Virus record (IMG/VR): IMGVR_UViG_2740892372_000012
Length of the DNA: 6,494 bases
Reading direction: 5' to 3' (one strand)
Origin: a virus
Taxonomy: Duplodnaviria > Heunggongvirae > Uroviricota > Caudoviricetes
Position 1 is the first letter of the stretch; every line of letters begins with the position of its first letter. The notes beneath the pieces were generated by a model, which ran no database searches, had not been told where the DNA came from, and saw only the letters and a list, made by a program, of their open reading frames with translations. The position numbers were made by a program, and so were the translations under genes. Shown piece after piece: positions 1,172-6,488 of the stretch.

Positions 1172-1201
1172 AGGAAAAAACAAAACCCGCCGAAGCGGGT
1201 T
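1172..1201 (-). terminator. Rho-independent terminator downstream of hok
   Basis: Minus-strand reading: stem AACCCGC (1190-1184), loop ttcg, stem GCGGGTT, followed directly by TTGTTTTTT (complement of plus 1175-1183). GC-rich 7-bp stem plus U-tract, about 70 nt after the hok stop. Confidence 0.6.
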
Positions 1202-1269
1202 AAGTGCGGGTGCGTTGAGGATGCCTGATTCATCAGAGGTGGCGAGGGATTTCTCCCCCGCCTGGTCTC

Positions 1270-1425
1270 TTACTCCTCAGGTTCGTAAGCTGTGAAGACA
1301 GCGACCTCCGTCTGGCCGGTTCGGATTCGTACCTCGCAGAGGTCTTTCCTCGTTACCAGTGCCGTCACTATGACGGTTAAACAGATGACGATCAGGGCGA
1401 TTAACATCGCCTTTTGCTGCTTCAT
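1270..1425 (-). CDS. hokD: Hok/Gef family type I toxin (51 aa, small membrane toxin)
   Basis: Translation MKQQKAMLIALIVICLTVIVTALVTRKDLCEVRIRTGQTEVAVFTAYEPEE matches the Hok/Gef family signature (hydrophobic helix, conserved Cys, C-terminal YE motif) and, from memory, the E. coli HokD/RelF sequence. AAGGAG SD 9 nt upstream of ATG 1423-1425. The ORF track lists a 70-aa in-frame extension from ATG 1480-1482, which has its own GAGG SD 8 nt upstream. Confidence 0.88.
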   Translation of the reverse strand: MKQQKAMLIALIVICLTVIVTALVTRKDLCEVRIRTGQTEVAVFTAYEPEE

Positions 1426-1546
1426 AGCCTGCTTCTCCTTGCCTTTCGGCACGTAAGAGGCTAACCTAGATTTGCCGTTCATAGATTGAGCCTCAGATTA
1501 ATGTTAAGCGTCTTGCAGGACGCGTAATGTTAACTGGGGCTTTTCT

Positions 1547-1582
1547 CTATCTGCCGTTGGTGTTCATGCCCGAGGCAGATAG
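1547..1582 (-). other. Inverted repeat (9-bp stem, 18-nt loop) in the region upstream of hok; possible leader RNA structure
   Basis: Plus 1547-1555 ctatctgcc is the exact reverse complement of 1574-1582 ggcagatag. Hok-family mRNAs are known to carry structured regulatory elements, but the role here is inference. Confidence 0.3.
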
Positions 1583-2029
1583 CCTCAAGCACCCGCAGCT
1601 ATTCTACTTAACTTCCCATTACCTCGCCAATATGAAATCGGTCAGAAAGACAGACGTCCCATAAGGACAACAACGGAAAAAGAGATTTTGCTTGATGCTA
1701 TTTACCTCTGCACCATGAAGTTGCGCCAAAATCCCAGTGGTGATAACAGGAATTTGGTTGTTGGTGATTGGGGAAAGAAGTACGTTAGACTGTGGGTTAG
1801 TTCATTGACATGATAGTTACCTGCCTTCAATTTCCTAAGCAAGCGATGTAAACGATAATCAATATCAAATGTATTGACAGGTAAAATAATAACGATGTAC
1901 CTTTGCTGATAACATATATCAGTCTTAAATCATAATGGAGGTAGATAAAATAACTAAACACACACAACAAATTTTTTATCAGTGACATAGCATATCTTAA
2001 GCATCCTTTAATGCTCATGGGGAGAACGC

Positions 2030-2803
2030 ATGACTAAACATATGGACATTCATTGTCAAACACGCATATTTAACTCAATTAACCATGACACCAAATATAA
2101 AATATGTATTTTTACTCCAAAAAACATTAAAAAAAATAATGCAACTCTTTATATACTTGATGGGAATAGTGCCAACAATTACATTTCTGATATTCTGCCT
2201 GTTATTGATGCACTACCCAATCCACCAGTGTTAGTTACACTTGGTTATGAATCTTGGAATAACCTTAGCATTCATCGCCGTGCTTACGATTATACTCCTG
2301 ATGGTGAAAATGCTATTGTTGATAACTCTAAACCAGCATGGATCTACTTTACTGGTGGAGGAAGCCAGTCTTTCCGAGAATTATTACTAACTCAGATCAT
2401 GCCATGGGTTAGTACTATTGCTCCGAACAGTTCCAGAATCGGTATATGGGGGCACTCGCTAGGTGCTATTTTTGTGCTTGATTGCTTAAAAAATAATTCA
2501 TGCTTTAACTATTATTATATATCTGCACCATCACTTCTATGGCAGAATGAAAGAATCATCAAGATAATTAAAGATGATATATCAGAATCAAAGCACACTA
2601 AAAGTATATGCTTGCTTAACGGAAATCTTAGCCTTGATTACTCCGCATCTTTATATCCTGAAGCCATCAAAGCGGAATCTGTTTTGAGAAATATTTTGAC
2701 AGAAAAATACAGTAATTTTTCTATTGTACAATTTCCAGAGCTCAATCATCAGGAGACTTTCTCTGCTGCACTCTGGAATAGCATTATTCATTTCAGCATA
2801 TAA
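2030..2803 (+). CDS. Alpha/beta-hydrolase fold esterase (esterase D / enterochelin-esterase-like family), no signal peptide; AT-rich cargo (moron) gene
   Basis: 257-aa ORF with GGGGAG SD 5 nt upstream of ATG 2030. Nucleophile elbow GHSLG (WGHSLGAIF), upstream LYILDGNS motif resembling the YLLDG motif of the putative-esterase family, and a His near the C-terminus (ELNHQETF) consistent with a Ser-Asp-His triad. Codon usage is strongly AT-biased compared with the flanking phage genes. Confidence 0.8.
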   Translation: MTKHMDIHCQTRIFNSINHDTKYKICIFTPKNIKKNNATLYILDGNSANNYISDILPVIDALPNPPVLVTLGYESWNNLSIHRRAYDYTPDGENAIVDNSKPAWIYFTGGGSQSFRELLLTQIMPWVSTIAPNSSRIGIWGHSLGAIFVLDCLKNNSCFNYYYISAPSLLWQNERIIKIIKDDISESKHTKSICLLNGNLSLDYSASLYPEAIKAESVLRNILTEKYSNFSIVQFPELNHQETFSAALWNSIIHFSI

Positions 2804-3154
2804 CAGAAAATATGTAATCACTTTATCAATCTAGCTAACATAACTGATATCAATCCTAATGGGTCTTTGAACATATTAAAAGATAACTTCTCATTTGTAC
2901 ATTGTTGTGTTCTTAGACCCATTTCAAAAATACTATTTTTTAGATACTAATAATTACATCCATTTAGCTATCTTCTAAATACTCCTCTCAGTTTCTTCAT
3001 TGGAGCTGATTCAACTCCGGCAATGCATACTAGGATCATTTTATAAGCATACAAACAACATCCAGACTGTGAATTATTGCTATTCATTTTCTATGTATCT
3101 GCTCTTTTCCCATCCACTGAAACACCAGAATCCAAAGGTTTCATGTTATTTTCA

Positions 3155-3568
3155 CTATTCCATCATTACTCCTGTGTAAAATATCAAAACTCGCTGCATC
3201 ACTTCACTGTTACGGCACTCACTACAAATTATGTTCAATTGCCTGTCATAGCGGCGTATTTCTCCGTCTGGTAATGACCAGATAAGGTCAGGATCAACCA
3301 CAACCGGTTTCTTCAGTTTTGCCCTCGATAGTTTTTTGCGGGCGTTTTGCCAGTCCTTACGAGCCTGTTCAGATGGGAATAACCCGTAACCAGAGTTGTA
3401 TACATCGCCACTGGCAACCAGCTCTCTGGCAAGAACGCTCATCAGATATCTTGTCGCACCTGTCTTGGCTTCCAGTTGCCGTAACGTCTCGCGCCCACTC
3501 CGGCGTACTAGCTCAACAACCTGCCCTTTAATTTTTTCCCGCTCTTCCTGTGTAAATACTTTTGCCAT
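3155..3568 (-). CDS. Hypothetical phage protein (137 aa), last gene of the replication-module operon
   Basis: ATG at 3566-3568 preceded by GGAGG (complement of 3574-3578) with a 5-nt spacer; stop TAG at 3155-3157. Start lies 15 nt after the upstream gene's stop. The ORF-track start (TTG 3583) is a less likely 5-codon extension. No recognisable catalytic motif. Confidence 0.7.
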   Translation of the reverse strand: MAKVFTQEEREKIKGQVVELVRRSGRETLRQLEAKTGATRYLMSVLARELVASGDVYNSGYGLFPSEQARKDWQNARKKLSRAKLKKPVVVDPDLIWSLPDGEIRRYDRQLNIICSECRNSEVMQRVLIFYTGVMME

Positions 3569-3583: not shown

Positions 3584-4354
3584 TCACTTTTCCGATACAA
3601 CACGGCGGGAAGAATCAGTAATCTGTCGAACAATATCCCGGTGCTTGTTCAGCTCCCGCAGCGCGGCGCAGACTCGCTCCCACTTCTGAACATCACTTTT
3701 CGCCCTGCGCAGCGCCAGGTTTGCCCTGCGAAGGGACGGAAAAATCAGCTCATCTGCTTGCGTTTCGGTAAACGATGGCAACGGCTGCACAATGTCCGCC
3801 ACAGTTTCTGTTTTAATTTCTTCCTGTGTTGCGGCTTCCCGGACTGGTAACGCAGCACCTGCTGGCTGAGGAAAGGCCTTACCATCACTTTCCGTTACCA
3901 GCGCGGCTTTCGGCTCTGCTGGTAAATTATCGCCCGGCATGCAGTAACGAAATTTACCGTTCTGATTAACGCGTGCCAGCCGCCCCGTTGCGGTTACCAC
4001 CGCCAGCGTGGAAGCAACCTTGCGAGTACTGACACCGAACTTACCCGCCAGTTCCTCACACGTTTTAGCCCCATCCTGACCGATAAACTCAATCATCATG
4101 TCTGCGGTAACTTTTTGTTCGACCTCCCCGGTCAGCATATCCTGTGCTTCAGATTTTACTGGCCGCTCTTCGGTTACCCGGGATTCACCTTCGCCAGCCA
4201 GAAACCAGGTGTGACCAGTTTTATCAACGACGCCATTTCTTTTGAGTTCCCACAGCTCGTTGACAGCCTCTTCACGACTGATTCCAAGGCGAGCTGCCAC
4301 CACATGTGAAGAGGCTTTTTTCAGTGCTTTCAGTGCGTCAGATACGGTTTCCAT
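3584..4354 (-). CDS. Hypothetical phage protein (256 aa) with two N-terminal regions resembling winged-helix/HTH segments
   Basis: ATG 4352-4354 with GGAGG (complement of 4363-4367) 8 nt upstream; stop TGA 3584-3586. Starts 21 nt downstream of the DnaC-like stop. Two similar segments (SDALKALKKASSHVVAARLGISREEAVNELWELKRNGVVDKTG and GAKTCEELAGKFGVSTRKVASTLAVVTATGRLARVNQNGK) suggest tandem wHTH-like domains; function unknown. Confidence 0.75.
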   Translation of the reverse strand: METVSDALKALKKASSHVVAARLGISREEAVNELWELKRNGVVDKTGHTWFLAGEGESRVTEERPVKSEAQDMLTGEVEQKVTADMMIEFIGQDGAKTCEELAGKFGVSTRKVASTLAVVTATGRLARVNQNGKFRYCMPGDNLPAEPKAALVTESDGKAFPQPAGAALPVREAATQEEIKTETVADIVQPLPSFTETQADELIFPSLRRANLALRRAKSDVQKWERVCAALRELNKHRDIVRQITDSSRRVVSEK

Positions 4355-4375: not shown

Positions 4376-5122
4376 TTACTTCACAACCCTCATATTGCTG
4401 ACATTTGGACGCCAGCTATCCCAGTTAAACGTCACCCATCGACCACCGTTCATGGTCATGCGGTCCATAATCCTCTCACCAAGAAGCGTACTCATTGCGG
4501 CATGATTCAGGTTTGTTAACATCCCGACACTGCACAGTGATGCTGTCCGGCGATCAATTATCTGGTGTAATACCACCTGCTCGTTTTTCGTCTCCCGCTG
4601 AACGCCTATTTCATCCAGGACCAGCAAATCAACACTGCAAAGCTCCTGTAAAAATTTTTCCCCGGATTTGCCGTTGTCGTAGCTGTCATGCAACACGCTC
4701 ATGACATCAGACACGGTGACGATAATCACGCTGCGCCCCTTCGCCATCAGCCGGTTACCCATCGCCGCTGCAAGGTGATTTTTCCCGGTGCCGGTTTTAC
4801 CGCTGAACACAAAATTCGTGCACCCGGTCATCAGTTCGTCAGCTATGGATTTGGCCTGGCTCAGCGCGTATTTTTGCCCGTCGTTCTGCACCTGATAATT
4901 CGCAAACGAGCATTTGCTGTGCAGAGGCTGGATGCCCGAACGATTCAGGATTTTTTCCACCCGCAACTGGTGATTCTGGCGGTTAATCTCCTCGCTGCGT
5001 TTTCGTCCTTCAGCAAGTTGCCATTCCCGCCACTCCTCCACCGTCCGGTACGGTGGAACCGACGCCGGTGGTGCAAGTCTGCGAATACGTTCAAGAACCC
5101 CGGCTGCCGCAATGTTTTTCAT
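4376..5122 (-). CDS. DnaC-like replicative helicase loader (AAA+ ATPase), prophage paralog of DnaC
   Basis: 248-aa ORF with Walker A FVFSGKTGTGKNHLAAAM and Walker B DLLVLDEIG, colinear over its full length with recalled E. coli DnaC (RSGIxPLH, CSFxNY, GMLTN, LLGERxMDRM, FNWDSWR). ATG 5120-5122 lies 6 nt after the initiator stop, with GGGGGTGA upstream (translational coupling). Confidence 0.9.
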   Translation of the reverse strand: MKNIAAAGVLERIRRLAPPASVPPYRTVEEWREWQLAEGRKRSEEINRQNHQLRVEKILNRSGIQPLHSKCSFANYQVQNDGQKYALSQAKSIADELMTGCTNFVFSGKTGTGKNHLAAAMGNRLMAKGRSVIIVTVSDVMSVLHDSYDNGKSGEKFLQELCSVDLLVLDEIGVQRETKNEQVVLHQIIDRRTASLCSVGMLTNLNHAAMSTLLGERIMDRMTMNGGRWVTFNWDSWRPNVSNMRVVK

Positions 5123-5128
5123 GCCACA

Positions 5129-6223
5129 TCACCCCCTGAATCCCGGCGGAATTTCGGTATCCGGTTCAGAAATATGATTCACACAACGCTGGTTGTTCGT
5201 GCCGCTTACCGGGAGCAACCAGGGGTTTTCAAAATTCCGGTCCGGCCCAAAAAACGTCGTCGCTCGCTGAACAAATTCCGTTCCCGCTTTCCCGGTCGCC
5301 GCCAGGTATCTCGCGTAACGCCTCACACCATCCAGCATGGTCTCTGGTGGCACCCCCTCGCGCAATCTGGCCTTCCAGGCACTGAATGCGGATTTCTTCG
5401 GGTTTGCTCCGGCACGCAACGGGTACTCCCGCCAGACCTGTTCGAACACATCCGGATAATCCACTCGTCCCACAGACAGCCCGGTGTTTTCCGGGACTAC
5501 CCGATCGGCTTCCCGCTGAATGGCGGAATCGGCTTCAGGCTGCTGCAGTTGGTGTGATTGCTTCGGCCTTGCGGTCATCACCTGCTGCACAGCGCCCGAA
5601 TCGGCTTTCAGCGCATACGCTGAATCGGCTTCCGGTGTCGTGCCTGCTGGCTGACCAGGATTGACGGTCTGAACATCCCCTGCCTGGTTCGTGGCGTTTT
5701 TTACGCCATGGACCATAGTGTTTTGATCTTCTTGATCTGTATCTTTATCTGTATCTTTATCTGTATCTTTATCTGTATCTTTATCTGTCGTGACTCGTCG
5801 TGACATGTGCATGACATTTCGTGACGCGCCGTGACAATCGCCATTTTGTTCCCGCTTTCTTTCCCTCTCTCGCTGCGCCCTCTTGCGCTCTGCAGGAGAT
5901 TTTGCGGTTTGCGAAATATTGCCGTTGTCCTCTTTAAGCACCTGGCGTTTTTCCCATCCAGTGATTAAATCACCATCAAGTACCCGCCCCTGCATCGTCT
6001 GCAAAATTGAATCAATTACCTCTTCTGTCACGTCGAGCGCACTTGCCAAATCTTCTGTCGTGACATCAATGTGACCTCGCGTGACATTTCGTGACGCGCT
6101 CACCAGGAGGTGGATATACACTGCCATCACTGTTGCAATTGGCTGCCCTGACACCCTGGCAATTGTTCGCCACTTAGGGTCATTTGGCATGTCATGCCAT
6201 AATCTGAGCCAGGCGTTAGCCAT
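5129..6223 (-). CDS. Phage replication initiation protein: N-terminal DNA-binding (replisome-organizer-like) domain, (DKDT)n linker, C-terminal DnaT-like (primosomal protein I-like) domain
   Basis: C-terminus ...NHISEPDTEIPPGFRG matches the recalled C-terminus of E. coli DnaT (...SEPDSQIPPGFRG). Gene order DnaT-like then DnaC-like mirrors the host dnaTC operon. Start taken as ATG 6221-6223 (GAGG SD, 5-nt spacer) rather than the GTG at 6229 used in the ORF track. Stop TGA 5129-5131. Confidence 0.85.
   Translation of the reverse strand: MANAWLRLWHDMPNDPKWRTIARVSGQPIATVMAVYIHLLVSASRNVTRGHIDVTTEDLASALDVTEEVIDSILQTMQGRVLDGDLITGWEKRQVLKEDNGNISQTAKSPAERKRAQRERERKREQNGDCHGASRNVMHMSRRVTTDKDTDKDTDKDTDKDTDQEDQNTMVHGVKNATNQAGDVQTVNPGQPAGTTPEADSAYALKADSGAVQQVMTARPKQSHQLQQPEADSAIQREADRVVPENTGLSVGRVDYPDVFEQVWREYPLRAGANPKKSAFSAWKARLREGVPPETMLDGVRRYARYLAATGKAGTEFVQRATTFFGPDRNFENPWLLPVSGTNNQRCVNHISEPDTEIPPGFRG
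5735..5788. repeat. Perfect tandem repeat, 12-nt unit atctttatctgt x4 plus a partial copy, in frame inside the initiator gene (encodes DKDT repeats)
   Basis: Plus 5741-5788 is four exact copies of atctttatctgt, preceded by a partial unit at 5735-5740. The region is AT-rich, with two GATC sites just upstream (5724-5727, 5734-5737). Confidence 0.9.
5788..5835. repeat. Cluster of five phased (G/A)TGAC direct repeats at about 10-bp spacing (putative iterons, cluster 1)
   Basis: tcGTGAC at 5788-5794, 5798-5804, 5819-5825; gcATGAC at 5809-5815; ccGTGAC at 5829-5835. Spacing 10/11/10/10 bp, about one helical turn. The motif falls in different codon phases of the overlapping initiator ORF, so it is conserved at the DNA level, not the peptide level. 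Confidence 0.6.
6058..6095. repeat. Second cluster of four phased GTGAC direct repeats (putative iterons, cluster 2)
   Basis: GTGAC at 6060-6064, 6071-6075, 6081-6085, 6091-6095. The 18-mer tgacatttcgtgacgcgc is identical at 5812-5829 and 6082-6099, and both clusters are preceded by the same ctgtcgtgac 10-mer (5785-5794, 6055-6064). Confidence 0.6.
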
Positions 6224-6488
6224 ACTCACCTCTTCTGATACCGAATCTTTTTACTCACGAGTTGCCGGAAGCGATTCGATATGGCTATTATCACTCAATG
6301 CACTGCCACAGCATTTCCTGCCGGGCCACCACGGTTCATCTGATTGAAACCGGCGATTGCCACTGCGACAAAATCATCAGCGTCTCTCACCAGTCGCTCC
6401 CGCGTCTCCACCAGCTCCCGAAAATAAGCTGAACTGAACCGCCCCGGGAATCCTGGAGACTAAACTTCCTGAGAAAGAGGTAAACAGG
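6224..6488. promoter_or_regulatory. Divergent intergenic control region between the leftward replication operon and a rightward gene starting at 6489
   Basis: No convincing ORF on either strand over about 265 bp. Plus-strand AAGAGG (6475-6480) followed 8 nt later by ATG 6489, with the gene running off the window. Candidate minus-strand -10 GATAAT (complement of 6287-6292) upstream of the initiator. Promoter elements are not confidently resolved. Confidence 0.35.

What the first reader, a model, noticed from the sequence alone, without database searches (positions are those of the whole stretch)
1483..2029. About 550 bp of ORF-poor, AT-rich DNA between hok and the esterase, with hairpins: candidate antisense/sRNA and promoter region
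This is an unusually long stretch with no convincing ORF on either strand, lying just upstream of a type I toxin, where a Sok-like antisense RNA and the structured hok leader would be expected. It contains a 9-bp perfect inverted repeat (1547-1555 with 1574-1582) and a 5-bp stem gcgtc/gacgc at 1509-1524. It must also hold the esterase promoter; TTGACA hexamers occur at 1805-1810 and 1874-1879, but no good -10 sits at proper spacing.
Basis: inference. Interest (0 to 1): 0.45.

Follow-up and report, generated by a model that had tools for sequence, protein, structure and literature searches.

The report
hok/sok control region plus gene scar
The 550-bp "empty" stretch is three ordinary things side by side: the already known RNA control region of a hok/sok toxin-antitoxin, a dead fragment of a phage antirepressor gene, and the conserved upstream region of an iron-scavenging (IroE-like) esterase gene that may be switched by the iron regulator Fur.

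Summary
They do not form a single element.

- **1483-~1672, hok/sok control region.** This is the regulatory half of a hokW-sokW-type type I toxin-antitoxin. Rfam RF01794 scores 107 bits against a threshold of 59. The 9-bp inverted repeat is the first hairpin of the hok mRNA. It is conserved in 45 other phage copies, with one compensatory pair. The 5-bp stem is the tip of the Sok/target hairpin. Promoters for hok (1630..1601, minus strand) and sok (1439-1467, plus strand) are conserved.
- **~1684-1778, gene scar.** This is a 28-codon remnant of an ORF6N/Ant antirepressor gene, inside a mosaic recombination junction.
- **1777-2029, esterase 5' flank.** This is the AT-rich left end of a 1.4-kb cassette whose gene is an IroE homologue (PDB 2gzr, E=5e-26). 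It shows no unusual folding and has no Rfam match. Its core, 1861-1950, is better conserved than third codon positions.
- **Possible Fur control.** The window's best Fur-box match (15/19, at 1848-1866) lies in this flank. That equals the score of known K-12 Fur sites. Fur control is inferred, not shown.

The RNA part is already known, so overall interest is low. The Fur-controlled prophage esterase is a modest new lead.

The parts
1439..1467 (+). Predicted sok promoter: -35 TTGCCT (1439-1444), 17-nt spacer, -10 TAACCT (1462-1467). It lies just outside the finding's left edge.
   Evidence: Read from the sequence. Both hexamers are conserved in 46 phage copies, with variants TTGACC and TAATCT. 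In the paralogue hokW-sokW, the promoter-less mutant primers YO-421/422 replace this same TAACCT (PMC8621323); that reading is my inference from the primer sequences.
1474..1550 (+). Predicted Sok-like antisense RNA, about 72-77 nt. It has a 5' single-stranded tail (1474-1487) antisense to the mok-like start codon, a long hairpin (1488-1541) whose tip is the gcgtc/gacgc stem (1508-1523), and a U-rich 3' end.
   Evidence: Fold -34 kcal/mol, z = -5.70, 0 of 200 shuffles as good. It is the complement of the RF01794 match. The ends are inferred by analogy with R1 Sok and sokW and have not been mapped.
1426..1594 (-). hok mRNA 5' leader. Predicted +1 is at 1594 (GGGUGCUUGAGG). The first (tac) hairpin spans 1536-1593 and contains the 9-bp repeat 1547-1555/1574-1582. 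It is followed by the Sok-target hairpin and the mok-like AUG at 1482..1480.
   Evidence: Rfam RF01794: 107.1 bits (gathering score 59), E=2.5e-24, model positions 1-157 of 157, ending on the hok AUG. 78.8% of cells are paired, against 30-44% when partners are slid. Three pairs carry compensatory changes, including A-U to G-C inside the 9-bp repeat.
1601..1630 (-). hok promoter: -35 TTGGCG (1630..1625), 18-nt spacer, -10 TAGAAT (1606..1601).
   Evidence: Found by the promoter scan. TAGAAT and a TTGGCG/TTTGCG-type -35 stay in register across phage copies whose flanking sequence is otherwise unrelated.
1631..1683 (-). Distal region upstream of the hok promoter. It is shared only with one subgroup of hok loci, out to about 1672. 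It contains a weak terminator-like hairpin at 1669..1655.
   Evidence: Homology with phages Evi, Tritos, mEp460 and loci L005/L044/L064/L066 ends at 1670-1672. In most other copies it ends at 1606-1649. The hairpin has only 3 G-C pairs and a poor U-tail.
1684..1778 (-). Dead N-terminal remnant of an ORF6N/Ant antirepressor gene (about codons 10-38). The C-terminal part is deleted at about 1684.
   Evidence: PGAP annotates a pseudogene at 1685-1768. It is 76-83% identical in DNA to ant/ORF6N genes of Stx phages and E. coli prophages. PF10543 ORF6N scores 17.9 bits, below the cut-off of 27.8, because only 28 codons remain. The translation ITNNQIPVITTGILAQLHGAEVNSIKQN aligns with ITHNQIPVITTELLAQLYGTETNNIKVN of an intact Ant. 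A related prophage keeps the intact gene between DUF977 and hok.
1777..2029 (+). 5' flank of the esterase cassette: promoter, operator and 5' UTR (33.6% GC). The conserved core is 1861-1950.
   Evidence: Divergent alleles L100-L103 share homology only from 1777 rightwards. The core is 93% (L101) and 100% (L099) identical, against 83-87% at esterase third codon positions and about 75% in the 3' non-coding DNA. Fisher p = 0.0099 and 1.2e-4.
1848..1866 (+). Fur-box-like site GTAAACGATAATCAATATC, 15/19 to GATAATGATAATCATTATC. Its 7-1-7 core CGATAATCAATATCA lies at 1853-1867.
   Evidence: It is the best match in the whole window. P = 0.0035 in shuffles of 1777-2029 and 0.031 in shuffles of the island. 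The 7-1-7 core has 2 mismatches; 0.03 such hits are expected in the window. Known K-12 Fur promoters score 12-16/19 by the same measure. Divergent alleles keep 14/19.
1907..1921 (+). Second, weaker Fur-like palindrome TGATAACATATATCA (3 mismatches to the 7-1-7 consensus).
   Evidence: It is the only other hit with 3 or fewer mismatches in the window. It is invariant in all esterase alleles. It overlaps the -35 of candidate promoter ATAACA-16-CATAAT.
1874..1936 (+). Candidate esterase promoters. One is TTGACA (1874-1879), 18-nt spacer, TACCTT (1898-1903). The other is ATAACA (1909-1914), 16-nt spacer, CATAAT (1931-1936).
   Evidence: The second is reported by the scan with 9/12 matches. The first was read from the sequence. 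All four hexamers are invariant across alleles. No transcription start data are available.
2021..2024 (+). Shine-Dalgarno GGAG, 5 nt before the esterase ATG at 2030.
   Evidence: Read from the sequence. Invariant in all alleles.
2030..2803 (+). IroE-like siderophore esterase gene (ECs_1077 in Sakai). Given as context for the promoter.
   Evidence: PDB IroE 2gzr E=5.1e-26 over residues 8-253; BES (2qm0) 9.2e-13; PfeE-type ferric enterobactin esterase 6gi0 1.5e-11. GHSLG aligns with the IroE GHSYG motif. Sakai annotation.
1270..1425 (-). hok toxin gene. Given as context.
   Evidence: PF01848 HOK_GEF, E=3e-23. Annotated hokD by PGAP.
1184..1220 (-). hok mRNA 3' end: the fbi-like segment (about 1208-1220) that pairs with the 5' end, and the intrinsic terminator (1201..1184). 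Given as context.
   Evidence: The minimum-free-energy fold of 1594..1180 pairs the first 12 nt with this segment; z = -7.35. The terminator was found by the scan.

Best explanation
The stretch is a mosaic of three unrelated pieces in the nin region of a lambdoid STEC prophage (Sp4 of O157 Sakai and its relatives).

- The hok mRNA starts near 1594 on the minus strand, from a TTGGCG-18-TAGAAT promoter.
- Its 5' end folds into the hairpin that contains the 9-bp repeat, and it also pairs with the mRNA 3' end. This keeps the full-length mRNA translationally inert.
- A Sok-like RNA of about 75 nt is made from the plus strand, at about 1474-1550. It pairs with the region around the upstream (mok-like) start codon and so blocks Hok synthesis.

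2. **About 1684-1778: leftover of an ORF6N/Ant antirepressor gene.** Recombination and deletion destroyed the gene. The remnant has no function and simply pads the gap.

3. **1777-2029: left end of an AT-rich 1.4-kb cargo cassette (moron).** It is transcribed against the phage early operon.
- It carries the promoter and 5' UTR of an IroE-like siderophore esterase.
- The promoter lies in the conserved block 1861-1950.
- It is most likely repressed by Fe-Fur, bound at 1848-1866 and perhaps at 1907-1921. The esterase would then be made under iron limitation.

What is shown: family membership of the hok leader, conservation, the gene remnant, the esterase family, and the motif statistics. What is inferred: the RNA ends, promoter use and Fur control.
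For: **hok/sok**
- RF01794 scores 107 bits against a gathering score of 59. Hok matches PF01848.
- Fold z-scores are -5.7 for Sok and -7.35 for the hok mRNA, which shows 5'-3' pairing.
- The cassette 1150/1182 to 1606-1672 is 88-97% identical in 80 phage contigs that have unrelated upstream neighbours.
- The -10/-35 hexamers and the transcript start are conserved. 78.8% of cells are paired, against 30-44% in slid controls, with three compensatory pairs.
- Primers for the experimentally proven hokW-sokW match 1597..1549 exactly (PMC8621323).

**Gene scar**
- PGAP annotates a pseudogene. There is DNA similarity to ant genes and protein-level similarity to Ant.
- A relative carries the intact gene at the same place.
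- Divergent alleles carry a different ant-derived filler between the hok promoter and 1777.

**Esterase flank**
- The GC content steps down at this point. The esterase is an IroE homologue. A 31%-identical relative sits beside TonB-dependent receptors.
- The core 1861-1950 is more conserved than third codon positions and than the 3' non-coding DNA.
- The Fur box matches 15/19, P = 0.0035 locally. That is within the 12-16/19 range of the fepA-fes, fepD-entS, fepB-entC, fhuA, cirA, fecI and tonB promoters.
- The only two 7-1-7 hits in 6.5 kb lie in these 253 bp.
Against: - No transcript data were available for this locus. The hok and Sok ends are set by analogy.
- The upstream (mok-like) ORF is in frame with hok here, unlike in plasmid R1. 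The coupling mechanism may therefore differ.
- The covariation support is thin: sequences are 88-97% alike and only 3 pairs carry double changes.
- The Fur box was noticed before it was tested. AT-rich DNA inflates such matches: P = 0.031 across the whole island, and P = 0.10 for two hits with 3 or fewer mismatches there.
- The strongest box lies just upstream of the conserved TTGACA, not over a mapped -10 or -35.
- The conservation test rests on two diverged lineages and on a block chosen after seeing the alignment. Recombination could also make the flank look conserved: L098 and L099 are 98-100% identical upstream but 92.6% identical in the gene.
Confidence: 0.8

Rival explanations
1. The right-hand 250 bp is ordinary AT-rich foreign DNA with a housekeeping or H-NS-silenced promoter. 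On this view the Fur-like motifs are a by-product of AT-richness and the esterase is not controlled by iron.
For: - The island is 33.5% GC.
- Over the whole island, a 15/19 match arises in 3% of shuffles. Two 7-1-7 hits with 3 or fewer mismatches arise in 10%.
- The best box does not overlap the best-conserved hexamers.
- No paper linking this gene to Fur or iron was found.
Against: - The top-scoring site in 6.5 kb falls within the 253 bp upstream of a siderophore-esterase homologue. It scores as high as proven K-12 Fur sites.
- The site is kept at 14-15/19 in lineages that differ at 17% of third codon positions.
- From established knowledge, the iroBCDE, fes and pfeE-type esterase genes are Fur-regulated.
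Confidence: 0.35
2. One reading: the AT-rich part (about 1640-2029) encodes a separate small RNA or antisense RNA in addition to Sok.
For: - The block 1861-1950 is conserved.
- It contains a short palindrome, CTGATA-N5-TATCAG, at 1906-1922.
Against: - Fold z-scores are +0.52 and +0.78 for the two strands.
- No Rfam match appears even at E up to 1.
- The scan finds no intrinsic terminator in 1700-2029.
- No Hfq-bound EcOnc sRNA is listed at the Sakai coordinates 11741xx-11746xx in the supplements of PMC4104026.
- The multicopy prophage sRNA HnrS lies in the late genes of other prophages (PMC13502914).
Confidence: 0.05
3. The stretch encodes small proteins. Candidates are ECs_1079 (1527-1664, plus strand, 45 aa) and the 63-aa ORF at 1827..2018 (minus strand).
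For: - ECs_1079 is annotated in the Sakai genome.
- Both ORFs exist in the sequence.
Against: - ECs_1079 lies wholly over the conserved hok leader, Sok and the hok promoter. Its start differs in other copies. PGAP does not call it.
- The 63-aa ORF is broken by a 1-nt indel in alleles L100-L103 (column 440).
- It is the kind of ORF expected by chance in AT-rich DNA on the strand opposite a gene's 5' flank (inference).
Confidence: 0.03

Closest known systems
hokW-sokW of Stx2 prophage Sp5, E. coli O157:H7 Sakai (Takada et al. 2021, PMC8621323)
   Same: - Same position in the nin region of a lambdoid prophage.
- The hok mRNA 5' end and first hairpin are identical: primer YO-351 matches 1597..1549.
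- Same sok -10 hexamer, TAACCT.
- Hok is 51 aa with the same first 44 residues.
- hokW-sokW is shown experimentally to be a type I toxin-antitoxin.
   Different: - This copy is in Sp4-type prophages.
- Its Hok C-terminus differs: ...FTAYEPEE here, against ...FVDYESEK as read from the primers.
- The codons after the upstream AUG differ.
- The upstream neighbour is an ant remnant plus an esterase cassette.
- This copy has not been tested.
hok/sok (parB) of plasmid R1; Rfam RF01794, Pfam PF01848
   Same: - A leader with a tac hairpin, a Sok-target hairpin and 5'-3' (tac-fbi) pairing.
- An antisense RNA from a promoter inside the leader, overlapping the upstream start codon.
   Different: - A 16-nt insertion lengthens the Sok/target hairpin. 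This insertion is the gcgtc/gacgc stem.
- The upstream ORF is in frame with hok, giving a 70-aa ORF. In R1, from memory of its sequence, mok is in another frame.
- The locus is on a prophage, not a plasmid.
Fur-repressed siderophore esterase genes (iroBCDE/iroE, fes, pfeE)
   Same: - The gene product is an IroE homologue (E=5e-26).
- The upstream DNA carries a 15/19 Fur-box match of the same quality as the fepB-entC and fecI sites.
   Different: - It is a stand-alone gene on a prophage, with no receptor or transporter next to it.
- The protein is only 257 aa. Whether it lacks an N-terminal anchor was not tested.
- Fur binding and iron response are untested.
Lambdoid phage morons (cargo cassettes with their own promoter between early genes)
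   Same: - An AT-rich 1.4-kb insert (1777 to about 3188) between DUF977 and ant/hok, transcribed opposite to the phage operon.
- Phage Evi carries a different cargo gene, an acetyltransferase, at the same spot.
   Different: No flanking terminator or mobility signature was identified here.
ORF6N / P22-type Ant antirepressor genes of Stx phages
   Same: 28 codons align with the N-terminal ORF6N domain. The position between the replication genes and hok is the same as in intact relatives.
   Different: Only a fragment is left. It has no start codon in frame, it scores below the Pfam cut-off, and the C-terminal nine-tenths are deleted.

Membership tests
[quoted passage not shown] | Small hydrophobic Hok/Gef toxin ORF | tested here: met
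   PF01848, E=3e-23, 81.6 bits against a cut-off of 22.
[quoted passage not shown] | Structured hok mRNA leader matching the family covariance model | tested here: met
   RF01794: 107.1 bits against a gathering score of 59, full length 1-157. The pairs are kept in 46 copies.
[quoted passage not shown] | Long-range pairing of the mRNA 5' end (tac) with its 3' end (fbi) | tested here: met
   Predicted in the minimum-free-energy and centroid folds of 1594..1180, z = -7.35. This is an in-silico result only.
[quoted passage not shown] | Antisense Sok RNA with its own promoter inside the leader, overlapping the upstream start codon | tested here: inconclusive
   The conserved TTGCCT-17-TAACCT promoter and a stable hairpin RNA are present. 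Transcription was not observed here. It was shown for the paralogue sokW (PMC8621323).
[quoted passage not shown] | mok reading frame overlapping hok in a different frame (the R1 arrangement) | tested here: not met
   The upstream AUG (1482) is in frame with hok, giving a 70-aa ORF. Other phage copies end the upstream ORF at a UGA that overlaps the hok AUG. An upstream start targeted by Sok exists, but not in the R1 form.
[quoted passage not shown] | Toxicity of Hok and its neutralisation by Sok | not testable with these tools
   Shown only for hokW-sokW (PMC8621323).
ORF6N/Ant antirepressor gene | Intact ORF with an ORF6N domain above the Pfam threshold | tested here: not met
   Only 28 codons remain. 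The score is 17.9 bits against a cut-off of 27.8. Stop codons and frameshifts occur upstream. PGAP marks it as a pseudogene. It is a remnant, not a member.
Fur-regulated promoter | Fur box close to the 19-bp consensus | tested here: met
   15/19 at 1848-1866, P = 0.0035 locally. Calibrated against K-12 Fur promoters, which score 12-16/19.
Fur-regulated promoter | Box overlapping a mapped -35, -10 or transcription start | tested here: inconclusive
   No transcription start has been mapped. The box overlaps a weak candidate promoter, TTTCCT-17-GATAAT, and ends 8 nt before the conserved TTGACA. The second site overlaps ATAACA.
Fur-regulated promoter | Fur binding and iron-dependent expression | not testable with these tools
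   No published data were found.
IroE-like siderophore esterase (gene served by the promoter) | Sequence similarity to IroE with the catalytic Ser (GxSxG) and His aligned | tested here: met
   2gzr, E=5.1e-26. GHSLG aligns with GHSYG, and LNHQ aligns with LGHG. The Pfam PF00756 match is weak (17 bits, below the cut-off of 22).
Independent small RNA in 1640-2029 | Unusually stable or conserved structure, a terminator, or a match to a described family | tested here: not met
   z = +0.52 and +0.78. No Rfam match. No terminator in 1700-2029.

The most novel reading that the evidence does not exclude
The right-hand quarter of the finding is the iron switch of an uncharacterised prophage cargo gene. 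On this reading, a Fur-repressed promoter at about 1848-1936 drives a short IroE-like esterase (ECs_1077). The gene is carried by Sp4-type prophages in about 8% of complete E. coli genomes, mostly O157, O26, O103 and O145 STEC. It would give these pathogens an extra, phage-borne way to release iron from catecholate siderophores. Its placement directly against a hok/sok module may help keep the cargo in the population.
Probability: 0.35. Interest if true: 0.45.

Novelty: already known. Interest (0 to 1): 0.2.

Why it matters
For the finding as stated, very little changes.
- The hairpins and the antisense RNA belong to one of the best-studied RNA-controlled toxin systems. That system is present in 4739 of 5426 complete E. 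coli genomes.
- It has already been shown to work in a sister prophage.

The analysis does give three useful results.
- **Annotation.** ECs_1079 is probably not a gene. The stretch 1684-1778 is an ant pseudogene. ECs_1077, labelled 'hypothetical protein' or 'alpha/beta hydrolase', is an IroE-family siderophore esterase.
- **Recombination hotspot.** The spot just upstream of the hok promoter is a recurrent recombination and cargo-insertion site in lambdoid phages.
- **A cheap, testable lead.** A Fur box lies in front of a phage-borne siderophore esterase that is common in Shiga-toxin-producing lineages.

Tried and rejected
- **Rfam at E up to 1 over the whole window.** Apart from sok, only sub-threshold hits appeared. 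isrK (27 bits) falls on the hok mRNA 3' end. A snoRNA and a CRISPR repeat hit are chance matches.
- **Folding of 1640-2029 on both strands.** No signal.
- **Terminator-like hairpin at 1669..1655.** It has 3 G-C pairs and a poor U-tail. It lies in hok-upstream DNA shared with a subgroup of hok loci, with no gene ending there. I did not accept it as a terminator.
- **The two TTGACA hexamers as promoters with a consensus -10.** None is present at the right spacing.
- **Small ORFs.** Rejected.
- **Esterase relatives in other species.** The pattern search of genome contigs found none. The word-indexed protein search gave only E. coli copies and one 31%-identical relative. In that relative's locus, the best Fur box sits before a TonB-dependent receptor, not before the esterase, so it says nothing here.
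- **Literature.** No paper holds ECs1075-1078 or links esterase, Fur box, prophage and EHEC. The IroE/prophage/O157 search gave nothing relevant.
- **Existing transcript data.** No supplements are held for the Sakai dRNA-seq and Term-seq paper (PMC7547250). No EcOnc sRNA lies at these coordinates. HnrS is elsewhere.
- **NCBIfam on the esterase.** No hit.
- **The 20-nt inverted match 1572-1591 / 1689-1708.** It falls in ordinary Ant coding sequence. I left it as probable chance.

Full report
**Context**

The window is the nin region of a lambdoid prophage.
- It is 100% identical over 1150-2100 to prophages of STEC O26:H11 11368, O145:H28, O103 and O157:H7. 455 of 5426 complete E. coli genomes carry that whole stretch.
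- In O157:H7 Sakai it is prophage Sp4. Genome position = 1176114 - window position. The esterase is ECs_1077 and the 70-aa hok ORF is ECs_1080.
- The phage early-right operon runs on the minus strand. It comprises an O-like replication gene (5129-6229), a DnaC-like gene (4376-5122), DUF1627, DUF977 (3155-3568), then hok (1270-1425), a small ORF and DUF968.
- The esterase (2030-2803) is on the opposite strand, inside a block of 27-40% GC.

**Checking the observation**

- The 9-bp inverted repeat and both TTGACA hexamers are exactly where stated.
- The 5-bp stem is one base to the left, at 1508-1512 / 1519-1523.
- GC content is heterogeneous: 47.5%, 43.4% and 33.6% for 1483-1640, 1641-1776 and 1777-2029.
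- As bare repeats the hairpins are unremarkable. A perfect repeat of at least 9 bp appears in 7.6% of shuffles. Stems of 5 bp are expected by the dozen.

**Left part: hok/sok**

*Family match and folding*
- Rfam's sok family (RF01794) matches 1594..1420 on the minus strand at 107.1 bits (gathering score 59, E=2.5e-24), full length. The match ends on the hok AUG, so it is the hok mRNA leader.
- In that alignment the 9-bp repeat is the core of the first hairpin. The gcgtc/gacgc stem is a 16-nt insertion that lengthens the second hairpin.
- The RNA from 1594 to the terminator at 1184-1201 folds at -172.6 kcal/mol (z = -7.35). Its first 12 nt pair with about 1208-1220, which is the classical tac-fbi lock.
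- The complementary plus-strand RNA, 1474-1556, folds into one long hairpin (-34 kcal/mol, z = -5.7) followed by a U-rich tract.

*Promoters*
- A TTGGCG-18-TAGAAT promoter sits at 1630..1601.
- A TTGCCT-17-TAACCT promoter for the antisense RNA sits at 1439-1467.

*Comparison with other phage copies*
- Eighty viral contigs encode the identical Hok. They share 88-97% identity from 1150/1182 up to 1594-1672 and nothing beyond. hok/sok is therefore a self-contained cassette whose upstream edge falls inside the finding.
- In 46 distinct copies the transcript start and the -10/-35 hexamers are conserved even where the flanks are unrelated.
- The Rfam structure is 78.8% paired, against 30-44% when partners are slid. 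Three pairs carry compensatory changes, one of them (A-U to G-C) inside the 9-bp repeat.

*Experimental precedent*
- The Sp5 paralogue hokW-sokW has been shown to be a working type I toxin-antitoxin. It aids phage release after induction (PMC8621323).
- Its published primers match this locus exactly at 1597..1549, and its promoter-less mutant alters the same TAACCT hexamer. The second point is my inference from the primer sequences.
- hok genes are known to be enriched in prophages, with up to 18 copies in an O157:H7 chromosome (bioRxiv 10.1101/2025.08.07.668861).

**Middle part: a gene scar**

- PGAP annotates 1685-1768 (minus strand) as an incomplete CDS.
- Its translation, ITNNQIPVITTGILAQLHGAEVNSIKQN, aligns with residues 13-40 of intact ORF6N/Ant antirepressors.
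- The DNA is 76-83% identical to ant genes of many Stx phages.
- A related prophage (O8:H28 BMH-17-0027) has the presumably ancestral order: DUF977, five small genes, an intact ORF6N gene, then hok.
- In the window, everything between DUF977 and ant is replaced by the esterase cassette. Ant is cut down to about 28 codons, with stops and frameshifts upstream.
- Diverged esterase alleles (L100-L103) carry a different ant-derived filler between the hok promoter and 1777. That filler is ant upstream DNA plus its first 12 nt. The segment 1640-1777 is therefore a recombination junction, not a functional unit.
- 1631-1672 is distal hok-upstream DNA shared with one subgroup of hok loci.

**Right part: the esterase 5' flank**

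*Boundary, structure and coding*
- Homology between the two esterase lineages begins at 1777.
- The stretch has no unusual RNA structure on either strand and no Rfam hit. Its only sizeable ORF is broken by an indel in the other lineage.

*Gene identity*
- The gene is an IroE homologue. PDB matches are 2gzr (E=5.1e-26), BES 2qm0 and the PfeE-type esterase 6gi0, with the serine motif and histidine aligned.
- The only close relatives are in E. coli prophages. A 31%-identical relative lies next to two TonB-dependent receptors.

*Conservation*
- Against lineage L101, the block 1861-1950 differs at 6 of 91 sites.
- That compares with 45 of 258 third codon positions (p = 0.0099) and 87 of 367 sites in the 3' non-coding DNA (p = 1.2e-4).
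- The block was chosen after viewing the alignment, and recombination is a possible confounder.
- The block contains TTGACA (1874), TACCTT (1898), ATAACA (1909) and CATAAT (1931). All are invariant.

*Fur box*
- The window's best match to the Fur consensus is 15/19 at 1848-1866. P = 0.0035 in shuffles of the flank and 0.031 in shuffles of the island.
- The only two matches to the 7-1-7 Fur motif with 3 or fewer mismatches in 6.5 kb are at 1853-1867 and 1907-1921.
- By the same measure, established K-12 Fur promoters (fepA-fes, fepD-entS, fepB-entC, fhuA, cirA, fecI, tonB) score 12-16/19. Only 7 of 176 control windows reach 14, and most of these probably contain the known sites.
- I therefore propose a Fur-repressed promoter. 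This is inference: no transcription start, binding or expression data exist. Literature searches found nothing on this gene.

**Verdict**

- The rest is a pseudogene scar and a cargo-gene promoter region. There is no evidence for a new RNA.
- The one mildly new lead is the possible iron control of a prophage-borne IroE-like esterase.

Noticed in passing
window 1270-1482 (-); alignment A1 columns about 160-225: The upstream (mok-like) AUG at 1482 is in frame with hok, giving the 70-aa ORF annotated as ECs_1080. Other phage copies (for example L084, L047, L042, L082, L033) carry -2/+1 indels. In those copies the upstream ORF stops at a UGA that overlaps the hok AUG (cUAUGA). One hok family therefore shows two different coupling designs, and neither is the R1 arrangement.
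   Followed up: partly
window 2030-2803 (+): The 'alpha/beta hydrolase' or 'hypothetical protein' ECs_1077 is an IroE-family siderophore esterase (PDB 2gzr, E=5e-26) of only 257 aa. It is carried by prophages in 455 of 5426 complete E. coli genomes, mostly STEC. In O26:H11 11368 it is split by IS1203.
   Followed up: partly
window 1572-1591 and 1689-1708: A 20-nt inverted match (85% complementary) links the hok mRNA 5' end and the ant remnant, 5 nt from the ant truncation point. In a read-through transcript it could pair with the hok 5' end. It lies in normal Ant coding sequence and may be chance.
   Followed up: no
window 5730-5788, with CGTGAC-type motifs at about 5789-5835 and 6037-6100: A 12-nt unit (TCTTTATCTGTA) is repeated 4.9 times inside the O-like replication gene, where it encodes (DKDT)n. 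Clustered GTGAC repeats lie next to it. This looks like an origin with iterons inside the initiator gene, as in phage lambda.
   Followed up: no
L004 (phage Evi) 3518-4419; L002 (strain OkiPb01713) 3996-4001: The site just upstream of the hok promoter is a recurrent rearrangement point. Phage Evi has an acetyltransferase cargo gene there. Strain OkiPb01713 has a deletion that joins rusA directly to window position 1800.
   Followed up: partly
window 1527-1664 (+): ECs_1079 of the Sakai annotation is an ORF that lies entirely over the hok leader, Sok and the hok promoter. It is almost certainly not a gene.
   Followed up: partly
window 2804-3154: About 350 bp of AT-rich non-coding DNA lies between the convergent esterase and DUF977 genes. 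It is only about 75% conserved between lineages and contains indels. No terminator or RNA family was looked for beyond the window-wide Rfam scan.
   Followed up: no
window 1180-1261 (-): A sub-threshold Rfam isrK hit (27 bits, gathering score 50) falls on the hok mRNA 3' end and terminator.
   Followed up: no
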